Source of the DNA: an uncultured Clostridium sp. | Lineage (GTDB): Bacteria > Bacillota > Clostridia > TANB77 > CAG-508 | DNA: 64,000 nucleotides | Assembly (NCBI GenBank): GCA_900553945.1 | Contig: USFR01000006.1 | Coordinates: 52,948 to 116,947 of the forward strand | Direction: 5' to 3' | Shown here: positions 7,137 through 36,105 of the stretch, one piece after another | Numbering within the stretch: the stretch's first letter is position 1 | Layout of the letters: each line of letters begins with the position of its first letter | The notes under the pieces: model-generated | What the model was told of the DNA's origin: nothing | Databases searched by the model: none | The model's input: the letters and a program-made list of their open reading frames with translations, nothing else | Translations under genes and position numbers: made by a program

Positions 7137-7572
7137 CTATACTAATAATATCACGGATTATAGCCATTTATATTTATTGTATTATTAGTATTTATTTTGT
7201 ATATGTTTTATTATTTTTTGCAAACAAAATGCAAACAATGTTTACATTCGATTTTAAAATTATAATAAAAATGCCTAGATTGCAACGTACTTAACATACG
7301 CTTAGCTTGTAGCTACATTGTCTAGGTCTTACTAAAAATATTTTACTATATCGAAACTTGTATGTCAAACATTTTTGCTAAAAAATATTAAAGGTAAAGA
7401 CCTAAATCTCTACCTTTTTTACCGTTGGTTATTTGGCAGGTGTGCCAAATCCTGCATCTCTTTTGACCTTTTAAAGGTGTGTGGATGGCACTATTGTCCA
7501 CTTCAAATAACCTAATTATATTGTACTTTTATTATACAACTTTTATTCATTTTTGTCTAGCATTTTTTAGAT

Positions 7573-17336: not shown

Positions 17337-17900
17337 ATGCGTATTTATAATTTTAAAATCAATAAAAACAAGTTATTTAAAGGGATTCTCCTTTTTTTCA
17401 TTATGATTTGTTTGGTACTTTTAATTCTTTCTGTTTATAAACTTTTTTTTGAAATGAAACATTATAATTCAGAAAATTTTGTAGTTAATGATACTTGTAT
17501 TTCTGATAACGATACTACAGAACTTAAATCCAATCAATATACAAATGTCTTAAAAGCAGTTCACGAAAATATTGATGATTACATTGGTAAAGAAATTACC
17601 TTTGTAGGCTATATCTACAGAATCAACTATCTACAAGCAAATCAATTTGTTCTAGCAAGAAATATGATTGTTAATCAAGCAAATCAAACGGTAGTTGTTG
17701 GATTTTTATCTGAATATGACAAAATAAATGACTTTACGAATTGCTCATGGGTTAAGGTTACAGGAAAAATAAAAAAAGGTTATCTAGATGGAGACATTCC
17801 AATACTAGAAGTAACTAAAATTGAAAATGTTGAAAAACCTACAGATGATTTTGTTTATCCACCAGACGAAACCTATATTCCAACAAGTGCTACCTTCTAA
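17337..17900 (+). CDS. Membrane-anchored hypothetical protein (DUF1980/TIGR03943-like permease-associated subunit)
   Basis: N-terminal TM helix followed by a soluble domain. Divergently adjacent to an AI-2E-type permease. Confidence 0.45.
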   Translation: MRIYNFKINKNKLFKGILLFFIMICLVLLILSVYKLFFEMKHYNSENFVVNDTCISDNDTTELKSNQYTNVLKAVHENIDDYIGKEITFVGYIYRINYLQANQFVLARNMIVNQANQTVVVGFLSEYDKINDFTNCSWVKVTGKIKKGYLDGDIPILEVTKIENVEKPTDDFVYPPDETYIPTSATF

Positions 17901-19150: not shown

Positions 19151-19347
19151 TTTTTATTAATAAAAGGAAAATACATATAAAATTTTTTTACACCTTACTG
19201 TCGCATTCCTCAGAATTTTAAAATAAAATTTATCAATTTTATTTTAAATTCGGGTAGAATGCTTCAATCGAACTCACTTCGTTCGTTTGGTCCCTGCGCG
19301 GTGATTCAAAAATTTTATATGTATTTTCCTTCAGATTACAAATTAAT

Positions 19348-19386
19348 AAAAAAACTCATCACCAAAACTGACGATGAGTTTTTTAA
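19348..19386 (-). terminator. Rho-independent terminator of the 19393-19791 gene
   Basis: aaaaaactcatc-(loop)-gatgagtttttt, the same stem sequence as the terminator at 26968-27003. Confidence 0.6.
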
Positions 19387-19392
19387 AACGGA

Positions 19393-19791
19393 TCACTTTT
19401 TAAAAACTAAAAACACAATAGCAGCAACTACTACTCCAACGACAGCACCTGTGATAATCAGTTCCGCCGATTTCAGGATTACTCCCCAGAAAATCAGCAA
19501 CATCAACGATGCCATGAATAATATCACCACTATCAAAATAGCTGCAACCTTAGCATCGTTTTCCTCGATTGCCGTTATGGCTACATATGGACCTACCAAG
19601 AGCGAAAAAGCTAAATATCCATATGTCAAAAAGCCAACCAGCAGTGCAGCAATCAAGCCAACACGGGTTTCATAGCCTACCTGGTAGACTTGTATTTCGT
19701 AGAATATAAATCCTACAAATACTGCAATTGCTAAAACACCCTTCCAAACTTTCAAGTTCCGTTTTCTTTCCTGCATAAAACACACCTCCAT
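19393..19791 (-). CDS. Small 4-TM membrane protein encoded in a GC-elevated (about 40%) insert
   Basis: Four clear hydrophobic helices. Likely start at the internal MQERKRNL. Codon usage is G/C-richer than neighbouring genes. Confidence 0.55.
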   Translation of the reverse strand: MEVCFMQERKRNLKVWKGVLAIAVFVGFIFYEIQVYQVGYETRVGLIAALLVGFLTYGYLAFSLLVGPYVAITAIEENDAKVAAILIVVILFMASLMLLIFWGVILKSAELIITGAVVGVVVAAIVFLVFKK

Positions 19792-26501: not shown

Positions 26502-26921
26502 ATGAAGAATACAAGTATTATAGAAAGAATCGAATACGCAGCGCAAAATGGAGTTTATGAAATTCCATTATACGTTTGGAACAAAACAGCCAAAAAACTG
26601 CGCAAAGAAGGTTTCATCCTTACTGAAACCAAAATCAAAAATGTTCGGAAAGGCGAAGGTCACTATCTGATTAGCTGGAAAAACGGTTATCATACTACCA
26701 ATCCAGAAATGAACTTGAAGGAACTGCTTCAAGAAACTGTTATGACAGTTGTTAGCAGCTTACCAGAAACAGTAAATAGTTGGGAAACACTTTTAAAAAC
26801 ATATAGTGAAATTGACAACAAGCTGTGCGTAAAAGTATTTCGTGAAAAAATATCGAAATACAACATCGAGCTCACTGAAGCCAACAGAATGTGGCTCATT
26901 GCAGCAACAAATCAAAAATAA
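26502..26921 (+). CDS. Hypothetical 139-aa protein in a GC-elevated insert between uvrB and uvrA
   Basis: Strong RBS aggagg. GC about 37% with ctg/cgg/ggc codons. Own terminator. Opposite strand to the flanking uvr genes. Confidence 0.6.
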   Translation: MKNTSIIERIEYAAQNGVYEIPLYVWNKTAKKLRKEGFILTETKIKNVRKGEGHYLISWKNGYHTTNPEMNLKELLQETVMTVVSSLPETVNSWETLLKTYSEIDNKLCVKVFREKISKYNIELTEANRMWLIAATNQK

Positions 26922-29091: not shown

Positions 29092-29231
29092 AACTTTTCA
29101 AATACCTCTCCATCTCTCTATCAATCTTATGTATTATATCAAATTATCTCATATATTTAAACACCAAACATAAAATTACATAAAAAAGTACCTACAACTT
29201 TTCATTGTAAGCACTTTTATTAATATTCAAT

Positions 29232-29346
29232 TCTATTTATTTTTTCTTTTTTGAACTACTATCATTGTAACTAATCCAGCTAAAGATACACCAGCTATTG
29301 CTACATATAGAATTATATTATCATAACAAGATTTAATACTCTGCAT
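29232..29346 (-). CDS. Candidate small hydrophobic peptide (38 aa), type I toxin-like
   Basis: Minus-strand ORF MQSIKSCYDNIILYVAIAGVSLAGLVTMIVVQKRKNK: one TM helix plus a basic tail. Lies in a 350-bp gene-free region next to a palindrome taccaatt..aatttggta. No clear Shine-Dalgarno. Confidence 0.25.
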
Positions 29347-29444
29347 TTTTACCAATTTTGCCATGCCAATTTGGTAATCAAAAATTCCAATTACAATATC
29401 ATTCTTATAAAAACCTTAAACAGGAGTACTTACAGTAATTTAAA

Positions 29445-31928: not shown

Positions 31929-32108
31929 AATTATACTATTTCAAAATTTAAGAGTCAAATACATTCAATATACAAAACTTTACATTTATCGTTGAAATTC
32001 TTTGAATCTCCTTCCTTGCTTGATTTTCTGTGATTTTTGAGATATAATTACTATAGATGCTTTTTTATTTATATGTGAGACATTATTTACCAAAGGAGGA
32101 TAAACACA

Positions 32109-33134
32109 ATGAAAATGTCAAATACTTTAAAAGATGTCATCCATCAAAAGTACGTTAGTGCAGCACAGGCAGCAAGCATTAACCCAGTAGAGGTTGAAGA
32201 AAATCTTCGCAAAGAGCTCGAAAACATTGATTTTTCTGGAAATGATGCTATAATTATGGATTATTTTCTGGACAAACTTGACAAAAGCATTCTTGCTCGG
32301 AAACAAACCCACCAAATGACAAACGTCAGCAGTGATGTATTGCACACAGCAATGTATATTATCAAATGGTTGAATCACGAATTTGATTACAATATTGATA
32401 CAAACATTGTTGCAAGACGTAAAGGTCTTGATTCAGAATTAGCTAAAATGCTTAGCCTCGCAGATGAACAGGATCCAACTCAGATTATGGATCGATTTGG
32501 TATAAGATTTGTTCTCGAAAACAACATCTCAACCGTATGCAAGTTCATGGTAAAATTCGTTAACATCATTTGCCACTTGAATCGTCAAGATTTAAGAAAC
32601 TTTATGAGTTTCGTGGAAACATCAGAATATGTTGATGATGTAGATGCCTACAGAATCAAAAACTTATTAAGAATTCCGTTTTCACTGAAACCACTTAGCA
32701 GAAAAAGTGATGGCAAACAGTTTGACCACGAGAAATATCCTGATATCGAGCTCCCGACACAAGCCGATATTGAAATTGTTAAACATCTTCTTGGAAACAT
32801 GAAATTCTATTTCATTCCGAAATCAAATGGATATCAGTCCATTCATGTTTTGATTGAAATTGAATCTTCATCTCCAAAGTTGCCAGGTTTCCAGATTGAA
32901 GTACAATTCCGTACTCACAAAATGGATGACTTTGCAGAAAATAACATCAACGCATCTCATATTCTTCATAAGGGTAAATTTAAGGAATACCTTAATGTAT
33001 TTACCCTTACAGATGAGGAATTGAAAGGAACTAACATTAGATTCTTCCGTTCATATAAGAGCGAGCAGGATGACCAAGACGGCATTCACTTTGGGAAGAA
33101 ATTCTACAACCGTCGTATCAACACAATTTCATAA
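32109..33134 (+). CDS. RelA/SpoT-domain protein: small-alarmone-synthetase-like nucleotide pyrophosphokinase (possible toxSAS) in a GC-elevated insert
   Basis: Synthetase-fold motifs: basic helix VARRKGLDSELAK, DRFGIRFVLE (G-loop Asp), NGYQSIHVLIEI, EVQFRTHKMDDFAE...HILHKGK (ExQxRT..M..WA..H..YK pattern). GC about 37%. Confidence 0.65.
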   Translation: MKMSNTLKDVIHQKYVSAAQAASINPVEVEENLRKELENIDFSGNDAIIMDYFLDKLDKSILARKQTHQMTNVSSDVLHTAMYIIKWLNHEFDYNIDTNIVARRKGLDSELAKMLSLADEQDPTQIMDRFGIRFVLENNISTVCKFMVKFVNIICHLNRQDLRNFMSFVETSEYVDDVDAYRIKNLLRIPFSLKPLSRKSDGKQFDHEKYPDIELPTQADIEIVKHLLGNMKFYFIPKSNGYQSIHVLIEIESSSPKLPGFQIEVQFRTHKMDDFAENNINASHILHKGKFKEYLNVFTLTDEELKGTNIRFFRSYKSEQDDQDGIHFGKKFYNRRINTIS

Positions 33135-33343
33135 CAAAAAAAAAATTGTCTCACATCAATATACCACCGTTCCGAATTGGAACGCAAAACAAAAAAACGA
33201 CCATGCAGGCCGTTTTTTTGTTTTATTTAATTTTAATGATACCCCTCAACTATGCTAGGGGATAATTGTAACTTTAATAATCTACTCAACTATATTGAGA
33301 AATAATTATAACTTTAATATTTCTCTGTTATACACAAAAATAA

Positions 33344-35113
33344 TTATTTTTCCTCAGGTAAAAGGTTCAACAATTTTAGTATCGCAACACCAATCTTTTC
33401 ACCTTTTCCCTCATAAGGCCATTCGTTAATTGAATAGCCAGGATTATCATTAATCTCAATAATTGAATAATTCTCCTCATCCAAATCTTCAATAATTATA
33501 TCAACACCGCAAATTTTTGCATCAAATGCACGAGACGCTTTCTCAGCAACCTTTTTAAAATATGTTGGCATAATCTCAGTCATATCAACGCTCTCACCAC
33601 CAGTAGAACAATTTGAATTTGTTCTCAAGAAAACTCTCTTTCCAGCAGGTAAAACCGTTTCATAATCATAGCCTTGAACCCTCAAATACTCAACAACCGG
33701 TTCATCCATCTTAACAGGAGTTCCAGTCAAGAAATGCCAAGGCTCTTTATTTTTCGCATCAATCAATTCCTTAATTGTACTCTTTCCATTTCCAACAACA
33801 CTAGCAGCCCTCCTATGAGCGACACTCAAGCATTTACCATTAACAACTAAGAAACGATACTCCATACCCTTTACATACTGCTCAATTAAAACATTTTCAT
33901 CAAACTTAAACGCATAATCAACAGCATTCATAATCTGAGCTTTAGAAGCACTTTTAGCAAATACAGTAATACCTGTACCATAGTTCGTATTTCTAGGCTT
34001 TACAACCAAAGAGCGATTATAAAATTCCTTCAATAACTCTTCTCTATCCTGAGCATTCATATTTCTATTTAGCAAAATAGCATTTGGAACATTCAGACCA
34101 TGCTCTTTCATTATCTGCTTTGAAGTAAACTTATCATCAGTAATAATTGGGAAAATATATGTATCTTTATCAGTCTTATTTCCCTCAATTACAAACTCCT
34201 CTCTGTCCTTATAATAGAATTGAACAATACTCTTTAACTCATTCAAAACTTCATAATCAACACCATTAGCAATAGCATCTTTAATTAAAACTACAGATTC
34301 ACTAACTAGCTTCTTATAATTTTGAAGACAATATCTAGCATTGTGGCCTTCATTAGTATACAAACTCAAAAATTCTTCAACTTTTTCATCTGTTAAAGAA
34401 TCCTCATCAAATCTACACAATCCAGCTTTAACCTCAGCTTCAATAGATTCAAGACCTGATTTAGTCTTCAAATTATACTTTTTCTCTACCTTATATAAAT
34501 ACTTAATCTCCTCTTTTAAACTCTTTGATTCATCATTTCCTAAGCAACCAAAAATAAATGTTAATAAAAACATTGCATCAGCCTCTGACAAACCACACTT
34601 TGAACGATAATTAATACCTATTGATGAAATCCTCAACTTATTCTTTCCAGCAATAATCTTACACTTACCAAACAACGGCTGAATAAGTTCTAACTTACGC
34701 TCAAACTCCTTCTTAATCTTCTCATTAGCCTCTTCAATATCATCTGGTAAAAAATCCTTTTCTCTAATTTCATCATAAAACTCTTCATCCAATATAATTC
34801 CCATTTGAGCCTTTAAGTTTATCTTTTCATCCTTCTTCTTAAAAGTTCCAAACGTCCATATATATTGATTAATCTTATATAACTCTTCAATAACAACATT
34901 TGTTATTTCATTAAATTTATCATACGCATCAAATAAATTTTCTTCCATTGGCGTTTTAATTTTAAAAACAACATCATCGTCATCAGCCGTAATTAACGGA
35001 TTTTTTTCCTTACAGCCAAATGCCTTAGGAAAACTTGTTTCAACCAACTTATTTTTTGAATTAATTCTTACAAACTCTCTTTCGAGACTAATATTATATT
35101 TTTCTATTTTCAT
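33344..35113 (-). CDS. ATP-grasp ligase (D-Ala-D-Ala ligase/glutathione synthetase-like C-terminal domain) with an uncharacterised ~300-aa N-terminal domain
   Basis: C-terminal half has ATP-grasp signatures: VVKPRNTNYGTGITVF, EQYVKGMEYRFLVVNG, IIEINDNPGYS. The N-terminal half matches nothing recognisable by eye. Confidence 0.65.
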   Translation of the reverse strand: MKIEKYNISLEREFVRINSKNKLVETSFPKAFGCKEKNPLITADDDDVVFKIKTPMEENLFDAYDKFNEITNVVIEELYKINQYIWTFGTFKKKDEKINLKAQMGIILDEEFYDEIREKDFLPDDIEEANEKIKKEFERKLELIQPLFGKCKIIAGKNKLRISSIGINYRSKCGLSEADAMFLLTFIFGCLGNDESKSLKEEIKYLYKVEKKYNLKTKSGLESIEAEVKAGLCRFDEDSLTDEKVEEFLSLYTNEGHNARYCLQNYKKLVSESVVLIKDAIANGVDYEVLNELKSIVQFYYKDREEFVIEGNKTDKDTYIFPIITDDKFTSKQIMKEHGLNVPNAILLNRNMNAQDREELLKEFYNRSLVVKPRNTNYGTGITVFAKSASKAQIMNAVDYAFKFDENVLIEQYVKGMEYRFLVVNGKCLSVAHRRAASVVGNGKSTIKELIDAKNKEPWHFLTGTPVKMDEPVVEYLRVQGYDYETVLPAGKRVFLRTNSNCSTGGESVDMTEIMPTYFKKVAEKASRAFDAKICGVDIIIEDLDEENYSIIEINDNPGYSINEWPYEGKGEKIGVAILKLLNLLPEEK

Positions 35114-35133: not shown

Positions 35134-36105
35134 CTACAATATATTCATAGATTCTACCTGAACTTTTCCAAACCTTGGTGTTCTTTCATTACCAACTGCC
35201 GTACTTCCAGGCTCTATGCTCATATTAAGTGCATTTACTGGTTTAATTTCATGGTATACAACAAAATCATGTTCATACATATTCAAATAACTGCGTTTTT
35301 CATATGTATTTCTTTTTATAATATGAGACAATTTTTTAAACAAATTATCCGTATCCAAATCAACATAAGAAAAAACTTTTTCAGAACTCTCATCACCTTT
35401 ATTTTGAAAATCAATTTCAAATAAAAAAGTTGGAGCCTCTTTTAATTCTATGTTTTTATTCATAATTTCATAATAACCTACCAGCTTTAATCCTACATTT
35501 AATTCATCCTCCTGCAACGATTTAACCGTTTTGCACAAAGCATCAAAACTATTTTTATTTCTACAATCAATCTCACACGCTAATCGTATTTTATTCTCCT
35601 TATTTAACTCATAAGCGCCTTTAATTGCAGACCTATATAGTTGCTTACCAATTCCTTTTACTTTATTTCCATACACGTCAAAAATATTCTGCTTTGCAAG
35701 AACCCCTGTTATAAACATCACATTTTCATTTGAAGTTGGGAAAAACGGATTATTAGACTTTTTTAAATTATTTTCAATTTTAACTGTTGTTGCTCCAATA
35801 ATATCATTTTCACCAAACTCATTTCTCTGCGTTGCAAGTATAACAGGATACTTAGTCACATTTTGATAAACCTGTGAAACATCCGGCACATGCATAAAAT
35901 CTTTGTTACCAATAAAATTCTGGTCATAAAAATAAGTTAATTTCAAAATGCCATTTAAAAAATCTTTTTCTGGCAAAGATTGAAACAAATTAAATTTAAT
36001 ATTTGATTTCTCTTTCAGTTCCTCCATTTCTTTAAAATATTTTTTGAATACAGTCTCTTCAAGAGACATCTGTATTCGCGGTTTTGCTTTTTTCTTTTTC
36101 TTCAT
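35134..36105 (-). CDS. GNAT-family N-acetyltransferase domain protein
   Basis: Motif A-like NKVKGIGKQLYRSAIKGA after beta-strand FITGVLAKQ. Lysine-rich N-terminus; the true start is probably at MSLEETVF. Confidence 0.55.
   Translation of the reverse strand: MKKKKKAKPRIQMSLEETVFKKYFKEMEELKEKSNIKFNLFQSLPEKDFLNGILKLTYFYDQNFIGNKDFMHVPDVSQVYQNVTKYPVILATQRNEFGENDIIGATTVKIENNLKKSNNPFFPTSNENVMFITGVLAKQNIFDVYGNKVKGIGKQLYRSAIKGAYELNKENKIRLACEIDCRNKNSFDALCKTVKSLQEDELNVGLKLVGYYEIMNKNIELKEAPTFLFEIDFQNKGDESSEKVFSYVDLDTDNLFKKLSHIIKRNTYEKRSYLNMYEHDFVVYHEIKPVNALNMSIEPGSTAVGNERTPRFGKVQVESMNIL

What the first reader, a model, noticed from the sequence alone, without database searches (positions are those of the whole stretch)
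32109..33134. Solitary RelA/SpoT-synthetase-domain protein in a GC-elevated insert: candidate toxic small alarmone synthetase
The 341-aa protein carries all hallmark SAS motifs (basic RRK helix, D-x-G-x-R strand, GYQSIHV, EVQFRT...H..H.GK). It has a ~70-aa N-terminal extension and a ~40-aa C-terminal extension unlike RelQ/RelP. It is encoded alone on the plus strand amid minus-strand genes at about 37% GC, with a hairpin-rich 3' region. Stand-alone divergent SAS proteins include toxSAS toxins (FaRel, PhRel, CapRel) involved in toxin-antitoxin and anti-phage defence. No obvious separate antitoxin gene is adjacent, so the extensions could act as fused regulatory or antitoxin domains in a novel arrangement.
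Basis: partly seen in the sequence, partly recalled or inferred. Interest (0 to 1): 0.65.

Follow-up and report, generated by a model that had tools for sequence, protein, structure and literature searches.

The report
Solitary alarmone synthetase with self-closing mRNA
A stand-alone RelA/SpoT-type enzyme gene in an uncultured gut Clostridia species has intact catalytic residues and no antitoxin partner, and unexpectedly it sits in every strain as deeply diverged alleles and is carried on an unusually folded messenger RNA whose two ends pair with each other.

Summary
The ORF (32109-33134, +, 341 aa) is real. It carries every RelA/SpoT synthetase catalytic motif, invariant across about 30 relatives. 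It defines a rare, unannotated small-alarmone-synthetase (SAS) subfamily found only in uncultured gut Clostridia. What sets the protein apart is a roughly 65-aa insertion in the middle of the synthetase domain plus a longer N-terminal helical region, not large terminal extensions. Its nearest solved relatives are RelP, RelQ and long Rel, not CapRel or FaRel2.

It is not an insert. All 10 strain contexts sampled through a neighbouring gene carry it in the same slot, and no partner gene is conserved, so the toxSAS operon test fails.

Three unexpected properties emerged:
1. The transcription unit is a sharp divergence island. Alleles within one species are only 49-90% identical in protein while flanks are 96-99.6% identical in DNA, and the alleles are under purifying selection.
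2. Third-codon-position GC is elevated across nearly the whole family.
3. The mRNA folds far more stably than synonymous-codon shuffles (z -2.4 to -11.2 in 12 alleles; 11 of 13 control ORFs -2.0 to +0.5). It is closed by a 9-14 bp helix between the 5'UTR and 3'UTR that covaries between lineages.

Best reading: a catalytically competent, tightly post-transcriptionally controlled alarmone synthetase. A defence role stays open.

The parts
32020..32048 (+). Promoter of the SAS gene: -35 TTGATT (32020-32025), 17-nt spacer, -10 TATAAT (32043-32048). The predicted transcription start is about 32055.
   Evidence: Consensus scan and sequence. TGnTATAAT-type -10 boxes lie at the equivalent place in most homologue loci (upstream sequences printed).
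32073..32082 (+). 5' strand (ATGTGAGACA) of the long-range closing helix, in the 5' UTR about 27-36 nt upstream of the start codon.
   Evidence: Inverted repeat I3. The 7-mer occurs once in the 64-kb window. The cognate against non-cognate helix test gives P = 30/50,000 at lineage level. All 10 of 10 pairs are in the MFE of the 1.17-kb transcript, with mean pair probability 0.96. It is helix 1 in the RNAalifold consensus.
32093..32099 (+). Shine-Dalgarno sequence AAGGAGG.
   Evidence: Sequence. It is left unpaired in the consensus fold, while the AUG lies in a short local hairpin. Occlusion of SD or AUG is inconsistent among alleles.
32109..33134 (+). SAS ORF, 341 aa: a RelA/SpoT synthetase-only protein of a new subfamily. 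Its coding sequence also carries excess RNA secondary structure.
   Evidence: MFE is -272.5 against -212.1 +/- 8.9 kcal/mol for synonymous-codon shuffles, z = -6.8.
32109..32393 (+). N-terminal helical region (aa 1-95): four predicted helices. It helps define the family and is one of the two most variable parts of the protein.
   Evidence: AF2 secondary structure. It is the best-scoring stretch in distant relatives. 21% of its sites vary within the 90% cluster.
32394..32576 (+). Synthetase core part 1 (aa 96-156): the R103-x-K105 strand, a helix, and the D128-x-x-G-x-R133 strand.
   Evidence: Aligns to RelP residues 67-121. Residues are invariant in the family.
32577..32798 (+). Insertion within the synthetase domain (about aa 157-230): three helices, a short strand, and a 20-25 aa coil that is absent in many distant relatives.
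   Evidence: Gap between the two aligned halves, 84 against 21 residues in RelP. AF2 elements H159-171, H177-187, E191-194 and H218-230. The coil segment is missing in the 300-330 aa relatives. 23% of sites are variable.
32799..32978 (+). Synthetase core part 2 (aa 231-290): the G-loop PKSNGYQSIH, the catalytic strand EVQFRT, and the helix ending in SHILHKGK.
   Evidence: Pfam match to aa 234-283. Aligned to RelP, RelSeq and RelA. Residues are invariant.
32979..33131 (+). C-terminal tail (aa 291-341) with the conserved motif F-x-S-Y-K-x(3)-N/D-D-x-D-G-I-H-x-x-K-x-F-Y-N-R-R.
   Evidence: Family alignment: D322, G325, K330, F332 and N338 are invariant. It is conserved in distant relatives too.
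33147..33156 (+). 3' strand (TGTCTCACAT) of the closing helix, 13-22 nt after the stop codon.
33168..33184 (+). Small hairpin CGTTCC-GAATT-GGAACG directly after the 3' strand. A hairpin of different sequence occupies the same place in other lineages.
   Evidence: Fold, alignment, and downstream sequences of all lineages.
33186..33224 (.). Bidirectional intrinsic-terminator-like hairpin (A-run, 17-nt arms 94% complementary, T-run), shared with the convergent ATP-grasp gene.
   Evidence: Inverted repeat I4 and fold. The strict consensus scan did not call it because of a mismatch in the stem.
32000..33400 (.). Divergence island: the stretch in which conspecific genomes differ by 13-31% in most 100-bp bins, while flanks are 97-100% identical.
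   Evidence: 100-bp divergence profile, window against L100. Recombination tract 32879-33379 against L094. Allele classes across 10 strains.

Best explanation
The gene encodes a catalytically competent small alarmone synthetase of a previously undescribed, lineage-restricted subfamily. It is a RelA/SpoT-type pyrophosphokinase that transfers the beta-gamma pyrophosphate of ATP to the 3'-OH of a purine nucleotide. The acceptor is most probably GDP, GTP or GMP, giving (p)ppGpp or pGpp, because its G-loop and catalytic strand look most like those of RelP and long Rel enzymes.

It is a fixed, single-copy chromosomal gene, transcribed alone from its own promoter and against the direction of nearly all neighbouring genes. 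It has no protein antitoxin. I infer that control is built into the messenger instead. The roughly 1.17-kb mRNA is exceptionally structured, and a helix between the 5' UTR and the first 20-30 nt after the stop codon closes it on itself, followed by a small conserved hairpin and a terminator. I infer that this architecture sets the mRNA's stability and/or limits its translation so that a potentially growth-arresting enzyme is made only in small or conditional amounts. I also infer that the need to keep the pairing explains the unusual G/C-rich synonymous codon usage.

The variable N-terminal helical bundle and the inserted helical subdomain are the likely regulatory or partner-binding surfaces. 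The locus carries deeply diverged alleles that are exchanged by homologous recombination and kept under purifying selection. This implies some form of balancing or frequency-dependent selection on the gene.

Shown here: the domain and its residues, the fold class, core-gene status, absence of a partner gene, the allelic divergence island, the excess RNA structure, and the covarying end-to-end helix. Inferred: the product, the effect of the RNA structure on expression, and the selective agent.
For: - Domain and residues: Pfam 44.3 bits. Invariant R103/K105, D128/G131/R133, K238/N240/Y242/H246 and E264/Q266/R268.
- Fold: AF2 model pLDDT 87.3, pTM 0.86. Foldseek top hits are RelP, Rel and RelQ at probability 1.0. 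The family profile hits RelP at 3e-9, Rel at 5.6e-9, RelSeq at 7e-7 and RelA at 5e-6. The family is acidic.
- Core and solitary: 10 of 10 contexts found through rubrerythrin carry it. Synteny is kept within four lineage groups, but no partner gene is shared. The upstream gap is 96-268 nt and the downstream gene is convergent in nearly all loci.
- Alleles: flanks 96-99.6% nt against SAS 70-84% nt / 49-91% aa within one species. The island is bounded at about 32000-33400. A mosaic tract is visible. dS is saturated at 90% aa identity, and pooled dN/dS is 0.11.
- RNA: z = -6.8, -4.5, -6.9, -4.4 and -7.8, -6.4, -2.6, -2.6, -2.4, -3.1, -11.2, -5.4 against synonymous shuffles, with no shuffle of 12-16 reaching the native value. 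Eleven ordinary control genes, including GC3-matched ones, give -2.0 to +0.5.
- Closing helix: 9-14 bp, with different sequences and compensatory changes between lineages; permutation P = 30/50,000. It is present in the MFE of 6 of 7 full-length transcripts at pair probability 0.84-0.96.
- Consensus fold: 17 pairs with double changes against 9.8 +/- 1.8 in shuffles (0/500) and 0-6 in slid controls.
- Precedents for 5'-3' pairing controlling bacterial mRNAs: aapA3 and hok (PMC6733600) and icaR (PMC3868564).
Against: - The product is not determined. The literature states there is no clear sequence signature separating tRNA-modifying toxSAS from nucleotide-modifying SAS, so similarity to RelP/Rel does not fix the substrate.
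- Deep allelic polymorphism is unusual for a physiological alarmone synthetase and fits a conflict gene better.
- The closing helix lies upstream of the SD, and predicted occlusion of SD or AUG is inconsistent among alleles. Translational repression is therefore not demonstrated.
- The reverse-complement strand also folds better than its shuffles (z -4.6 and -5.6). Assignment of the structure to the sense mRNA rests on somewhat stronger sense values and on many G-U pairs.
- RNAalifold structures derived from the same sequences bias the covariation counts upward.
- All RNA structures are predictions, and the transcription start is inferred from a consensus promoter.
- Whether these genomes also carry a long Rel or a hydrolase could not be examined.
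Confidence: 0.5

Rival explanations
1. It is a single-gene toxic SAS acting in anti-phage defence by abortive infection. The enzyme is kept silent by its locked mRNA and/or by intramolecular autoinhibition through the N-terminal bundle, the insert or the C-terminal tail. A phage cue releases it. It then arrests growth by pyrophosphorylating tRNA or by flooding the cell with (pp)pApp or (p)ppGpp. Allelic diversity reflects an arms race with phage triggers or inhibitors.
For: - Stand-alone, divergent SAS with intact catalytic residues and no antitoxin.
- Alleles 49-90% identical within a species whose flanks are 96-99.6% identical, confined to the transcription unit.
- The SAS tree is incongruent with host synteny.
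- The accessory regions are the most variable parts: 21-23% of sites against 7-8% in the cores, and dN/dS 0.13 against 0.05. This parallels the variable sensor domain of CapRel (PMC9712102).
- The mRNA has end-to-end pairing as in toxin mRNAs (PMC6733600).
- There is a weak PADLOC hit to the defence candidate PDC-S33.
- toxSAS are thought to have arisen repeatedly from non-toxic SAS (PMC7229694).
Against: - The gene is core: 10 of 10 contexts.
- It lies among housekeeping genes rather than in a defence island or prophage.
- There are no relatives in phages, plasmids or viral structure sets.
- The nearest solved relatives are RelP, RelQ and Rel, while CapRel reaches only E 0.28 and FaRel2 E 0.16.
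- The family is acidic, with no sign of the basic patch used by FaRel2 for tRNA.
- Overall dN/dS is 0.11 with no robust signal of positive selection. One segment in one pair shows 12 non-synonymous against 2 synonymous changes.
- The PDC-S33 match covers only 37 of 349 profile positions.
Confidence: 0.3
2. It is a recently acquired, GC-richer foreign insert. The composition and the opposite strand mark a horizontally transferred island carrying the SAS.
For: - GC3 is 0.35 against 0.20 in the window.
- Codon usage is shifted towards G/C-ending codons, including CGN, CTG and CAG.
- Neighbours differ between distant lineages.
- The SAS tree is incongruent with synteny.
Against: - The gene occupies the same slot in every strain sampled and in relatives whose SAS is only 44-64% identical.
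- There are no integrase, repeats or tRNA at the borders.
- The GC3 excess recurs in hosts of 28-30% GC across lineages whose synonymous sites are saturated. It is therefore maintained, not a fading trace of import.
- The excess goes together with excess RNA pairing.
- Homology breaks lie at the edges of one transcription unit, not of an island.
Confidence: 0.04
3. The flanking inverted repeats and the internal self-complementarity act at the DNA level. The unit would be a cassette bounded by short terminal inverted repeats that is swapped between genomes by a dedicated recombination mechanism, possibly through a single-stranded stage. The repeats would covary because one protein recognises both ends, not because RNA pairs.
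For: - 10-14 bp inverted repeats bracket the ORF and differ between lineages.
- The unit behaves as a replaceable cassette.
- The reverse complement also folds better than its shuffles.
Against: - The divergence island (about 32000-33400) extends beyond the repeats (32073 and 33156) and includes the promoter and terminator.
- A mosaic breakpoint lies inside the ORF, as expected of ordinary homologous recombination.
- There is one copy per genome at a fixed site, no target-site duplication, and no recombinase nearby.
- Many predicted pairs are G-U, which exist only in the sense RNA.
- Sense-strand excess stability exceeds antisense in the window allele (-60 against -39 kcal/mol).
Confidence: 0.04
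4. The excess structure and elevated GC3 are by-products of the gene's orientation against replication. They would reflect selection to limit R-loops or transcription-replication conflict, or a strand-specific mutation bias, and would have no regulatory role specific to the SAS.
For: - The gene lies opposite to 41 of 44 genes in a window with strong GC skew, and opposite to its neighbours in most homologue loci.
- Another small + strand gene (26502-26921) also shows GC3 of 0.34 and z of -3.2.
Against: - Two other + strand genes (348-1961 and 17337-17900) have ordinary GC3 (0.18) and z of -1.7 and -0.3.
- Both C3 and G3 are raised beyond what mirroring the strand bias would give.
- A specific, covarying 5'-3' helix and a conserved 3' hairpin are not explained by a general bias.
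Confidence: 0.07

Closest known systems
RelP / RelQ (SAS2 / SAS1) small alarmone synthetases of Firmicutes (PDB 6ewz, 6fgj, 6fgk, 5dec)
   Same: Synthetase-only RelA/SpoT proteins with the same fold (Foldseek probability 1.0). They share the catalytic motifs R-x-K, D-x-x-G-x-R, G-Y-x-S-x-H and E-x-Q-x-R-T. Both are acidic proteins and both are chromosomal stand-alone genes.
   Different: - Only about 16% identity.
- 341 aa here against about 210-230 aa.
- A roughly 63-aa helical insertion between beta2 and the G-loop, an N-terminal region longer by 25-30 aa, and a different conserved C-terminal tail.
- The G-loop reads NGYQS as in long RSHs, not GYRS.
- Extreme allelic polymorphism and a structured, end-paired mRNA. 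I did not test RelP or RelQ mRNAs for the latter.
Synthetase domain of long RSH enzymes (Rel, RelA; PDB 1vj7, 9s6k, 7oiw, 5iqr)
   Same: The G-loop PK-x-NGYQS-I/L-H and the E-I/V-Q-I/F-R-T strand are nearly identical in sequence. The family profile hits Rel at E 5.6e-9 and RelSeq at 7e-7.
   Different: No HD hydrolase domain and no TGS or ACT regulatory domains; only PF04607 is found in the 341 aa. The N-terminal 95 aa give no detectable HD similarity.
Fused CapRel (CapRel-SJ46, PDB 7ztb), a single-polypeptide toxSAS-antitoxin defence protein
   Same: A single ORF of similar length (373 aa) with a RelA/SpoT synthetase domain plus extra regions and no separate antitoxin gene. Its non-catalytic parts are the most variable (PMC9712102).
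   Different: - Sequence relation is limited to the G-loop at E 0.28, and CapRel is not among the Foldseek hits.
- The extra material here is N-terminal and internal rather than a C-terminal pseudo-ZFD.
- No Y-x-x-Y motif in a C-terminal 3-10 helix could be identified.
- It is not prophage-borne and it is a core gene.
- The protein is acidic.
toxSAS toxin-antitoxin modules (FaRel, FaRel2, PhRel, PhRel2; PMC7229694)
   Same: Divergent SAS enzymes outside RelP/RelQ, with the catalytic Tyr of the G-loop and the Mg-binding Asp retained.
   Different: - No conserved bicistronic or tricistronic arrangement.
- FaRel2 (8pu1) is only Foldseek rank 32 at E 0.16.
- No basic patch is suggested by composition.
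Toxin mRNAs locked by a 5'-3' long-distance interaction (hok of plasmid R1; aapA1/aapA3 of Helicobacter; PMC6733600), and the icaR mRNA of S. aureus (PMC3868564)
   Same: The two ends of the mRNA pair with each other. The pairing is conserved with covariation across homologues, and the whole mRNA is compactly folded.
   Different: - Those mRNAs are short (a few hundred nt, for peptides of 30-50 aa), or pair the 3' UTR directly with the SD. Here the helix spans about 1.08 kb, encloses a 341-codon ORF and lies upstream of the SD.
- No antisense RNA antitoxin was found.
- Occlusion of the ribosome-binding site is not consistently predicted.

Membership tests
RelA/SpoT homologue (RSH) superfamily, synthetase domain (Pfam PF04607) | Profile match above the curated threshold | tested here: met
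   44.3 bits against a cut-off of 27, for aa 234-283. The first half of the domain is recovered by the family profile against RelP and Rel.
RelA/SpoT homologue (RSH) superfamily, synthetase domain (Pfam PF04607) | Catalytic residues present: R-x-K ATP-phosphate binders, Mg-binding Asp, G-loop Tyr, and catalytic Glu in E-x-Q-x-R | tested here: met
   R103, K105, D128, R133, Y242, E264, Q266 and R268 are invariant in 30 sequences. R103, K105, D128 and K238 are invariant, and Y242, E264 and Q266 more than 90% conserved, in the wider set.
RelA/SpoT homologue (RSH) superfamily, synthetase domain (Pfam PF04607) | Nucleotidyltransferase-type alpha/beta fold of RSH synthetases | tested here: met
   AF2 model pLDDT 87.3. 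Foldseek finds RelP, Rel and RelQ at probability 1.0, TM (target) about 0.5.
Small alarmone synthetase (SAS; synthetase-only RSH) | No HD hydrolase domain and no TGS/ACT C-terminal regulatory domains | tested here: met
   PF04607 is the only Pfam family in the 341 aa. NCBIfam gives only partial hits to the synthetase part of the long-RSH models.
Small alarmone synthetase (SAS; synthetase-only RSH) | Synthesis of (p)ppGpp or pGpp from ATP and a guanine nucleotide | not testable with these tools
   Requires an enzyme assay.
RelQ / RelP subfamilies | Close sequence relationship over the full length of a compact 210-230 aa protein | tested here: not met
   16% identity with alignments confined to two segments. 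A roughly 63-aa insert. No NCBIfam SAS-level match.
RelQ / RelP subfamilies | Homotetramer through the C-terminal helix, with an allosteric pppGpp site in RelQ | not testable with these tools
toxSAS toxin-antitoxin systems (FaRel, FaRel2, PhRel, PhRel2, unfused CapRel) | Conserved, often overlapping two- or three-gene operon with a cognate antitoxin (PMC7229694) | tested here: not met
   Flanking-gene clustering of 19 loci finds no gene family shared across synteny groups. The gene is monocistronic, with an upstream gap of 96-268 nt and a convergent downstream gene in nearly all loci.
toxSAS toxin-antitoxin systems (FaRel, FaRel2, PhRel, PhRel2, unfused CapRel) | Toxicity on expression that depends on the G-loop Tyr | not testable with these tools
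   Requires expression assays.
toxSAS toxin-antitoxin systems (FaRel, FaRel2, PhRel, PhRel2, unfused CapRel) | Basic surface patch near the N-terminus that guides the tRNA acceptor stem (shown for FaRel2) | tested here: inconclusive
   Whole-protein pI is 6.3, the N-terminal region 5.4, and the family median 5.8. This argues against a basic patch, but surface electrostatics could not be computed without coordinates.
Fused CapRel defence proteins | C-terminal pseudo-zinc-finger antitoxin domain with a Y-x-x-Y motif that blocks the ATP site (PMC9712102) | tested here: not met
   The CapRel chain 7ztb matches only aa 231-274, at E 0.28. The predicted C-terminal 50 aa are short helices, coil and one strand, and they are well conserved rather than variable.
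Fused CapRel defence proteins | Frequent location in prophages or defence islands | tested here: not met
   No hits in phage or plasmid records. The only IMG/VR hit is a long RSH. BFVD best E is 0.04. Neighbours are housekeeping genes.
PADLOC defence candidate PDC-S33 | Match over most of the 349-position profile | tested here: not met
   Only positions 134-170 match (aa 236-271), at 30.6 bits. This is the shared G-loop motif.
mRNAs controlled by a 5'-3' long-distance interaction (works-like comparison: hok, aapA, icaR) | [quoted passage not shown] | tested here: met
   9-14 bp cognate helices of different sequence in at least 5 lineages; permutation P = 30/50,000. In the MFE of 6 of 7 transcripts. 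Helix 1 in the consensus.
mRNAs controlled by a 5'-3' long-distance interaction (works-like comparison: hok, aapA, icaR) | The interaction sequesters the Shine-Dalgarno sequence, or an antisense RNA antitoxin is present | tested here: inconclusive
   The helix lies upstream of the SD. The probability of SD being unpaired ranges from 0.04 to 0.71, and of AUG from 0.06 to 0.99, among six alleles. No convincing antisense promoter was found and there is no Rfam match.

The most novel reading that the evidence does not exclude
The locus is a one-gene immune or growth-arrest module of a new kind. A toxic RelA/SpoT-type pyrophosphokinase would have as its 'antitoxin' its own messenger RNA rather than a gene: a compact, end-to-end-paired mRNA that keeps the enzyme untranslated or scarce until a trigger opens it. 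Candidate triggers are phage-induced RNA processing, 3' trimming, or loss of a factor that binds the conserved 3' hairpin. The allelic cassettes would be maintained in the population by frequency-dependent selection from phages. This would extend the type-I-toxin logic of a locked mRNA from small membrane peptides to a 341-aa enzyme, and it would add a core-genome, RNA-gated member to the toxSAS world.
Probability: 0.2. Interest if true: 0.88.

Novelty: new variant of a known kind. Interest (0 to 1): 0.72.

Why it matters
RSH enzymes are central to bacterial stress signalling, and some have turned out to be toxins and phage-defence effectors. Most of the 30 recognised SAS subfamilies remain uncharacterised (PMC7229694).

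This locus adds a subfamily from abundant but uncultured human-gut Clostridia, with a domain insertion at a new position. More unusually, it couples the enzyme to two features not previously linked with RSH genes, as far as I could find. One is a whole-mRNA fold closed by a covarying 5'-3' helix. The other is deep allelic polymorphism confined to one transcription unit of the core genome.

If the RNA fold controls expression, it would explain how a potentially toxic synthetase can exist without an antitoxin. It would also be a rare bacterial example of a long ORF embedded in a selected global mRNA structure, with visible consequences for codon usage.

If the polymorphism reflects phage pressure, it points to alarmone synthetases as core-genome immune genes. 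Both ideas can be tested directly by mutagenesis, structure probing and enzyme assays.

Tried and rejected
- **Recent foreign insert.** Rejected. The gene is in the same slot in all strains and in relatives, and the GC3 excess is family-wide.
- **Hypermutation or rapid positive selection as the cause of divergence.** Rejected. Differences from the nearest strain form one recombination tract. dS is saturated while dN/dS is about 0.05-0.13.
- **Strand mutation bias as the cause of high GC3.** Not sufficient.
- **Compositional artefact in the folding z-scores.** Rejected with GC3-matched controls.
- **Free RNAduplex comparison of the UTRs.** Dominated by A-run/U-run pairings. Replaced by a contiguous-helix test.
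- **Riboswitch, leader or known sRNA around the gene.** No Rfam match at a useful score.
- **Phage or plasmid origin.** No hits. The single IMG/VR hit (L092) is an ordinary long RSH at a contig end.
- **Repeats marking a mobile cassette.** Only the short inverted repeat and chance matches were found.
- **Placement among the 30 named SAS subfamilies.** Not possible, because the classification tables of PMC7229694 are not held.
- **First synonymous-shuffle run.** Timed out and was repeated on a smaller scale.
- **Two literature searches.** Failed on syntax.


Full report
**1. The observation**

The ORF at 32109-33134 (+) exists and encodes 341 aa. It has an AAGGAGG Shine-Dalgarno at 32093-32099 and a TTGATT-17-TATAAT promoter at 32020-32048. 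A hairpin-rich 3' region follows it: 33125-33345 folds with z = -5.5. That region contains a small hairpin (33168-33184) and an A-run/stem/T-run bidirectional terminator (33186-33224).

Pfam finds RelA_SpoT (PF04607) at 44.3 bits, but only over aa 234-283.

Two parts of the description need correction.
- The gene is not a '37% GC insert'. Gene GC is 0.355 (z = 1.7 among 44 long ORFs), and the excess is confined to third codon positions (0.351 against 0.20 +/- 0.06).
- The terminal 'extensions' are modest. The family profile aligns positions 92-145 to RelP 67-121 and positions 229-301 to RelP 142-213. So the N-terminal excess is about 25-30 aa and the C-terminal excess about 20 aa.

The main anomaly is an insertion of roughly 63 aa between the D-x-G-x-R strand and the G-loop. 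The AlphaFold model (pLDDT 87.3, pTM 0.86) predicts three helices, a short strand and a coil for it.

**2. What the protein is**

The protein belongs to a small family with no functional annotation.
- 31 clusters turned up in the 5.8-billion-sequence search, all 336-387 aa apart from one 192-aa fragment. The only name given is 'hypothetical protein [Clostridia bacterium]'.
- An exhaustive profile search of 1.84 billion representatives finds 43 proteins at E <= 1e-30 and 97 at E <= 1e-10.
- Among GTDB species representatives, full-length relatives occur only in uncultured gut Clostridia MAGs.

More distant members of 300-330 aa keep the N-terminal helical region, the helical part of the insert, the catalytic residues and the C-terminal D-x-D-G...K...R-R motif. 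They lack the coil segment of the insert.

The best Foldseek hits of the model are RelP (E about 1e-4, probability 1.0, TM about 0.5 on the target), then Rel catalytic fragments and RelQ. FaRel2 is rank 32 at E 0.16, and CapRel and Tas1 do not appear. With the family profile, RelP scores 3e-9, a long Rel 5.6e-9, RelSeq 7e-7, RelA 5e-6 and CapRel (7ztb) only 0.28. The PADLOC hit to PDC-S33 covers just the G-loop. The family is acidic: median pI 5.8, query 6.3, N-terminal region 5.4. FaRel2, by contrast, uses a basic patch for tRNA, and RelP/RelQ are negatively charged in that region. The same paper notes that no clear sequence signature separates tRNA-targeting toxSAS from other SAS, so the substrate stays open.

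**3. Genomic setting**

The window is a chromosomal stretch of a roughly 29% GC Firmicute. Of 44 long ORFs, 41 lie on the minus strand, and the GC skew is strongly negative. Around the SAS lie uvrB, a PHP-domain gene, rubrerythrin and class B sortase on one side. On the other side lie a GshAB-like ATP-grasp gene, an unknown 323-aa gene, and fabI-accA-accD-accC.

I clustered flanking genes over 19 family loci. At least four synteny groups appear:
- A: rubrerythrin-[sortase or Fur]-SAS-[ATP-grasp + unknown, or HAD]-fabI
- B: glmS-SAS-DUF2508-purA-serS
- C: L010 and L013
- D: the distant relatives

No gene family is shared across the groups. The SAS is always monocistronic, with 96-268 nt upstream and a convergent downstream gene in nearly all loci. 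It usually lies opposite to its neighbours. The defining toxSAS feature, a conserved operon with an antitoxin (PMC7229694), is therefore absent.

I also sampled the locus without reference to the SAS, through contigs encoding the identical rubrerythrin. All 10 distinct contexts carry the SAS between sortase and the ATP-grasp gene. The gene is core in this species. The truly variable island nearby lies between the PHP gene and uvrB. No relatives exist in phage or plasmid records. The one IMG/VR hit is a long RSH, and the viral structure set gives nothing better than E 0.04.

**4. An allelic divergence island**

In every syntenic comparison the SAS is the most diverged gene:

| Pair | Neighbour identity (aa) | SAS identity (aa) |
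|---|---|---|
| WIN vs L100 | 95-99.8% | 90% |
| WIN vs L101 | sortase 94% | 48% |
| WIN vs L005 | 88-99.8% | 58% |
| WIN vs L102 | uvrB 95.7%, ATP-grasp 93.7%, rubrerythrin 92.2% | 45% |
| L004 vs L015 | mostly 63-86% | 40% |
| L014 vs L121 | 74-89% | 28% |

Within the window's own species, flanking genes are 96-99.6% identical in DNA. The SAS falls into at least three allele classes: the window type, a common class at about 81% nt / 90% aa, and a 365-aa class at 70% nt / 49% aa. The 90% cluster alone holds 126 protein variants.

The 100-bp profile against L100 shows 97-100% identity outside about 32000-33400. Inside it, identity is 69-87% in most bins (93% in one), which corresponds to the transcription unit from promoter to terminator. 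Against the closest strain, the differences form one tract at 32879-33379. That is a recombination import.

The alleles are old rather than fast-evolving. At 90% protein identity, synonymous sites are already saturated (146 synonymous differences in 341 codons). Pooled dN/dS over four close pairs is 0.11: 0.05 in the catalytic cores and 0.13 in the N-terminal and insert regions. Those accessory regions also hold most of the within-cluster variation.

The SAS tree does not follow synteny. Group A alleles split into three clades, and one group B allele is closest to an allele from another context. Group D shows tandem paralogues with differential retention.

Together these results indicate replacement of allelic cassettes by homologous recombination at a fixed core site, with long-lived allelic lineages. 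Such a pattern is typical of genes under balancing or frequency-dependent selection. The agent of that selection is not identified.

**5. Codon usage and RNA structure**

The elevated GC3 is not specific to this window. In 9 of 10 homologue loci the SAS has GC3 of 0.28-0.54 against 0.11-0.18 for its neighbours, while GC1 and GC2 are ordinary in the window gene, the one allele checked. The shift affects all NNC codons plus CAG, AAG, CTG and CGN. It exceeds what mirroring the strand bias would give.

Synonymous sites are saturated between alleles living in hosts of 28-30% GC. The composition must therefore be maintained. An explanation came from folding. Each SAS ORF is far more stable than versions in which synonymous codons are permuted, with protein and codon usage unchanged.
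- z = -6.8, -4.5, -6.9, -4.4
- z = -7.8, -6.4, -2.6, -2.6, -2.4, -3.1, -11.2, -5.4

No shuffle reached the native energy in any of the 12 alleles. The excess is 36-61 kcal/mol in the first four. Eleven ordinary control genes from the window, including ones with GC3 of 0.25-0.43, give z from -2.0 to +0.5. The two sets do not overlap.

The ORF is bracketed by a short inverted repeat: ATGTGAGACA at 32073-32082 in the 5' UTR and TGTCTCACAT at 33147-33156, 13 nt after the stop. All group A alleles keep this pair, even at 45-59% protein identity. Other lineages carry different but mutually complementary pairs at the same places:
- L001: TGTGAGGCAATTA / TAGTTGCCTTACA
- L010: AGTACGAGTA / TACTCGTACT
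- L015 and L104: TGTAAGGGA / TCCCTTACA
- L012: GATGTGAAT / ATTCACATC

Cognate 5'/3' windows give better contiguous helices than non-cognate ones. The lineage-level permutation P is 30/50,000, and individual helices are exceeded by 0.5% or fewer of non-cognate pairs in WIN, L005, L101, L102, L001 and L010. The distant group D/H relatives and L004/L008 show no significant helix.

In folds of the whole roughly 1.2-kb transcripts, the helix spans about 1.1 kb. It is present in the minimum-energy structure of 6 of 7 alleles, with mean pair probability 0.84-0.96.

RNAalifold on 12 gapless alleles of the species recovers this helix as the outermost element of a nested set of long-range helices, 241 pairs in all. 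The pair counts are:

| Measure | Observed | Shuffles | Slid controls |
|---|---|---|---|
| Cells paired | 96.7% | 95.8% | 35-45% |
| Pairs with compensatory double changes | 17 | 9.8 +/- 1.8 (0 of 500 reach it) | 0-6 |
| Cells with double changes | 41 | 18.4 +/- 3.9 | 0-10 |

The caveat is that the structure was derived from the same sequences. A small hairpin follows the 3' strand in every lineage, with a different sequence in each.

The reverse complement also folds better than its shuffles (z -4.6 and -5.6). Strand assignment therefore rests on the larger sense excess in the window allele and on the many G-U pairs. Predicted occlusion of the SD or the AUG differs between alleles. The structure cannot simply be read as an SD mask.

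**6. Interpretation**

The protein is best described as a catalytically competent SAS of a new subfamily. Its active site most resembles those of (p)ppGpp synthetases. It is core, solitary and has no antitoxin.

The new and best-supported facts concern the gene as a unit: a sharply bounded allelic divergence island, and an mRNA under strong structural selection that is closed by a covarying end-to-end helix. End-to-end pairing is a known device for keeping toxin mRNAs inert (hok, aapA3; PMC6733600) and for controlling icaR (PMC3868564). From this I infer that expression of the enzyme is restrained or conditioned at the RNA level. I also infer that the pairing requirement explains the G/C-rich synonymous sites.

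Whether the enzyme is a physiological alarmone synthetase (my preferred reading, 0.5) or a self-contained toxic or defence effector (0.3) cannot be settled by computation. Core status, housekeeping surroundings, absence from mobile elements, acidic composition and RelP/Rel affinity favour the first. The allelic polymorphism, the variable accessory regions and the toxin-like mRNA architecture favour the second. A DNA-level cassette mechanism and an orientation by-product are minor rivals.

**7. Novelty and verdict**

By sequence, fold and architecture this is an RSH/SAS enzyme, so it is not categorically new. It is a new variant in three respects:
- a domain insertion at a position not seen in the solved SAS structures retrieved
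- a core locus with 49-90% allelic identity inside a species
- a globally structured, end-paired mRNA with a visible imprint on codon usage

I could not check it against the 30 named SAS subfamilies, because the tables are not held. The host's other RSH genes, the enzyme's product and any toxicity are also untested. Interest 0.72.

Noticed in passing
window 26502-26921 (+): A 139-aa ORF of unknown function between uvrA and uvrB, on the minority strand and called as a gene in conspecific contigs. Like the SAS gene it combines elevated GC3 (0.34) with excess folding against synonymous shuffles (z = -3.2).
   Followed up: partly
window 19259-19675 (+): A 138-codon ORF whose translation looks non-genic lies in a locally GC-richer stretch (19-20 kb, GC 0.336). 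It folds much better than shuffles (z = -4.2, GC3 0.39). It may be an unannotated structured RNA; nothing in Rfam reaches threshold.
   Followed up: no
window 29092-29444, between uvrB and the PHP gene: This short intergenic gap is the site of a hypervariable island in other strains. They carry a RhuM-family gene plus one to three unknown genes, or a HisKA_7TM kinase/response regulator/SHOCT set, or 456-aa and 506-aa (Flg_new) genes. The window strain carries none of these.
   Followed up: partly
window 7428-7511 (-): skipping-rope sRNA (Rfam RF02924) at 69.1 bits, well above its gathering score of 36.7.
   Followed up: no
window 33245-33279 and 33285-33319: A 35-nt direct repeat (80% identical) lies between the SAS terminator and the stop of the convergent ATP-grasp gene. 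It is conserved in conspecific strains and its function is unknown.
   Followed up: no
window 33344-35113 (-) and 35134-36105 (-): A 589-aa protein pairs a short N-terminal glutamate-cysteine-ligase fragment with a GshAB/cyanophycin-synthetase-like ATP-grasp half. It is followed by a 323-aa protein with no family match. The pair is conserved in group A loci, but the 323-aa partner diverges far faster (64% against 94% identity between WIN and L102).
   Followed up: partly
L014:1100-3000: A distant relative's genome carries two tandem SAS-family paralogues (287 and 310 aa, 19% identical). Related genomes keep one or the other at the same site, L121 the first type and L105 the second.
   Followed up: partly
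L001:9170-10741 (also L002, L003): In one lineage the SAS is followed on the opposite strand by a 205-aa unknown gene and a 288-aa gene with a faint HD-domain hit. I did not test whether the latter is an alarmone hydrolase.
   Followed up: no
window 32053-32072 and the equivalent 5' UTRs of L001, L005 and L102: Between the -10 box and the 5' strand of the closing helix, several alleles have a short TAGAT...ATCTA-type stem at the very 5' end of the predicted transcript. This is a possible 5'-terminal stabilising hairpin (sequences). It was not tested statistically.
   Followed up: no
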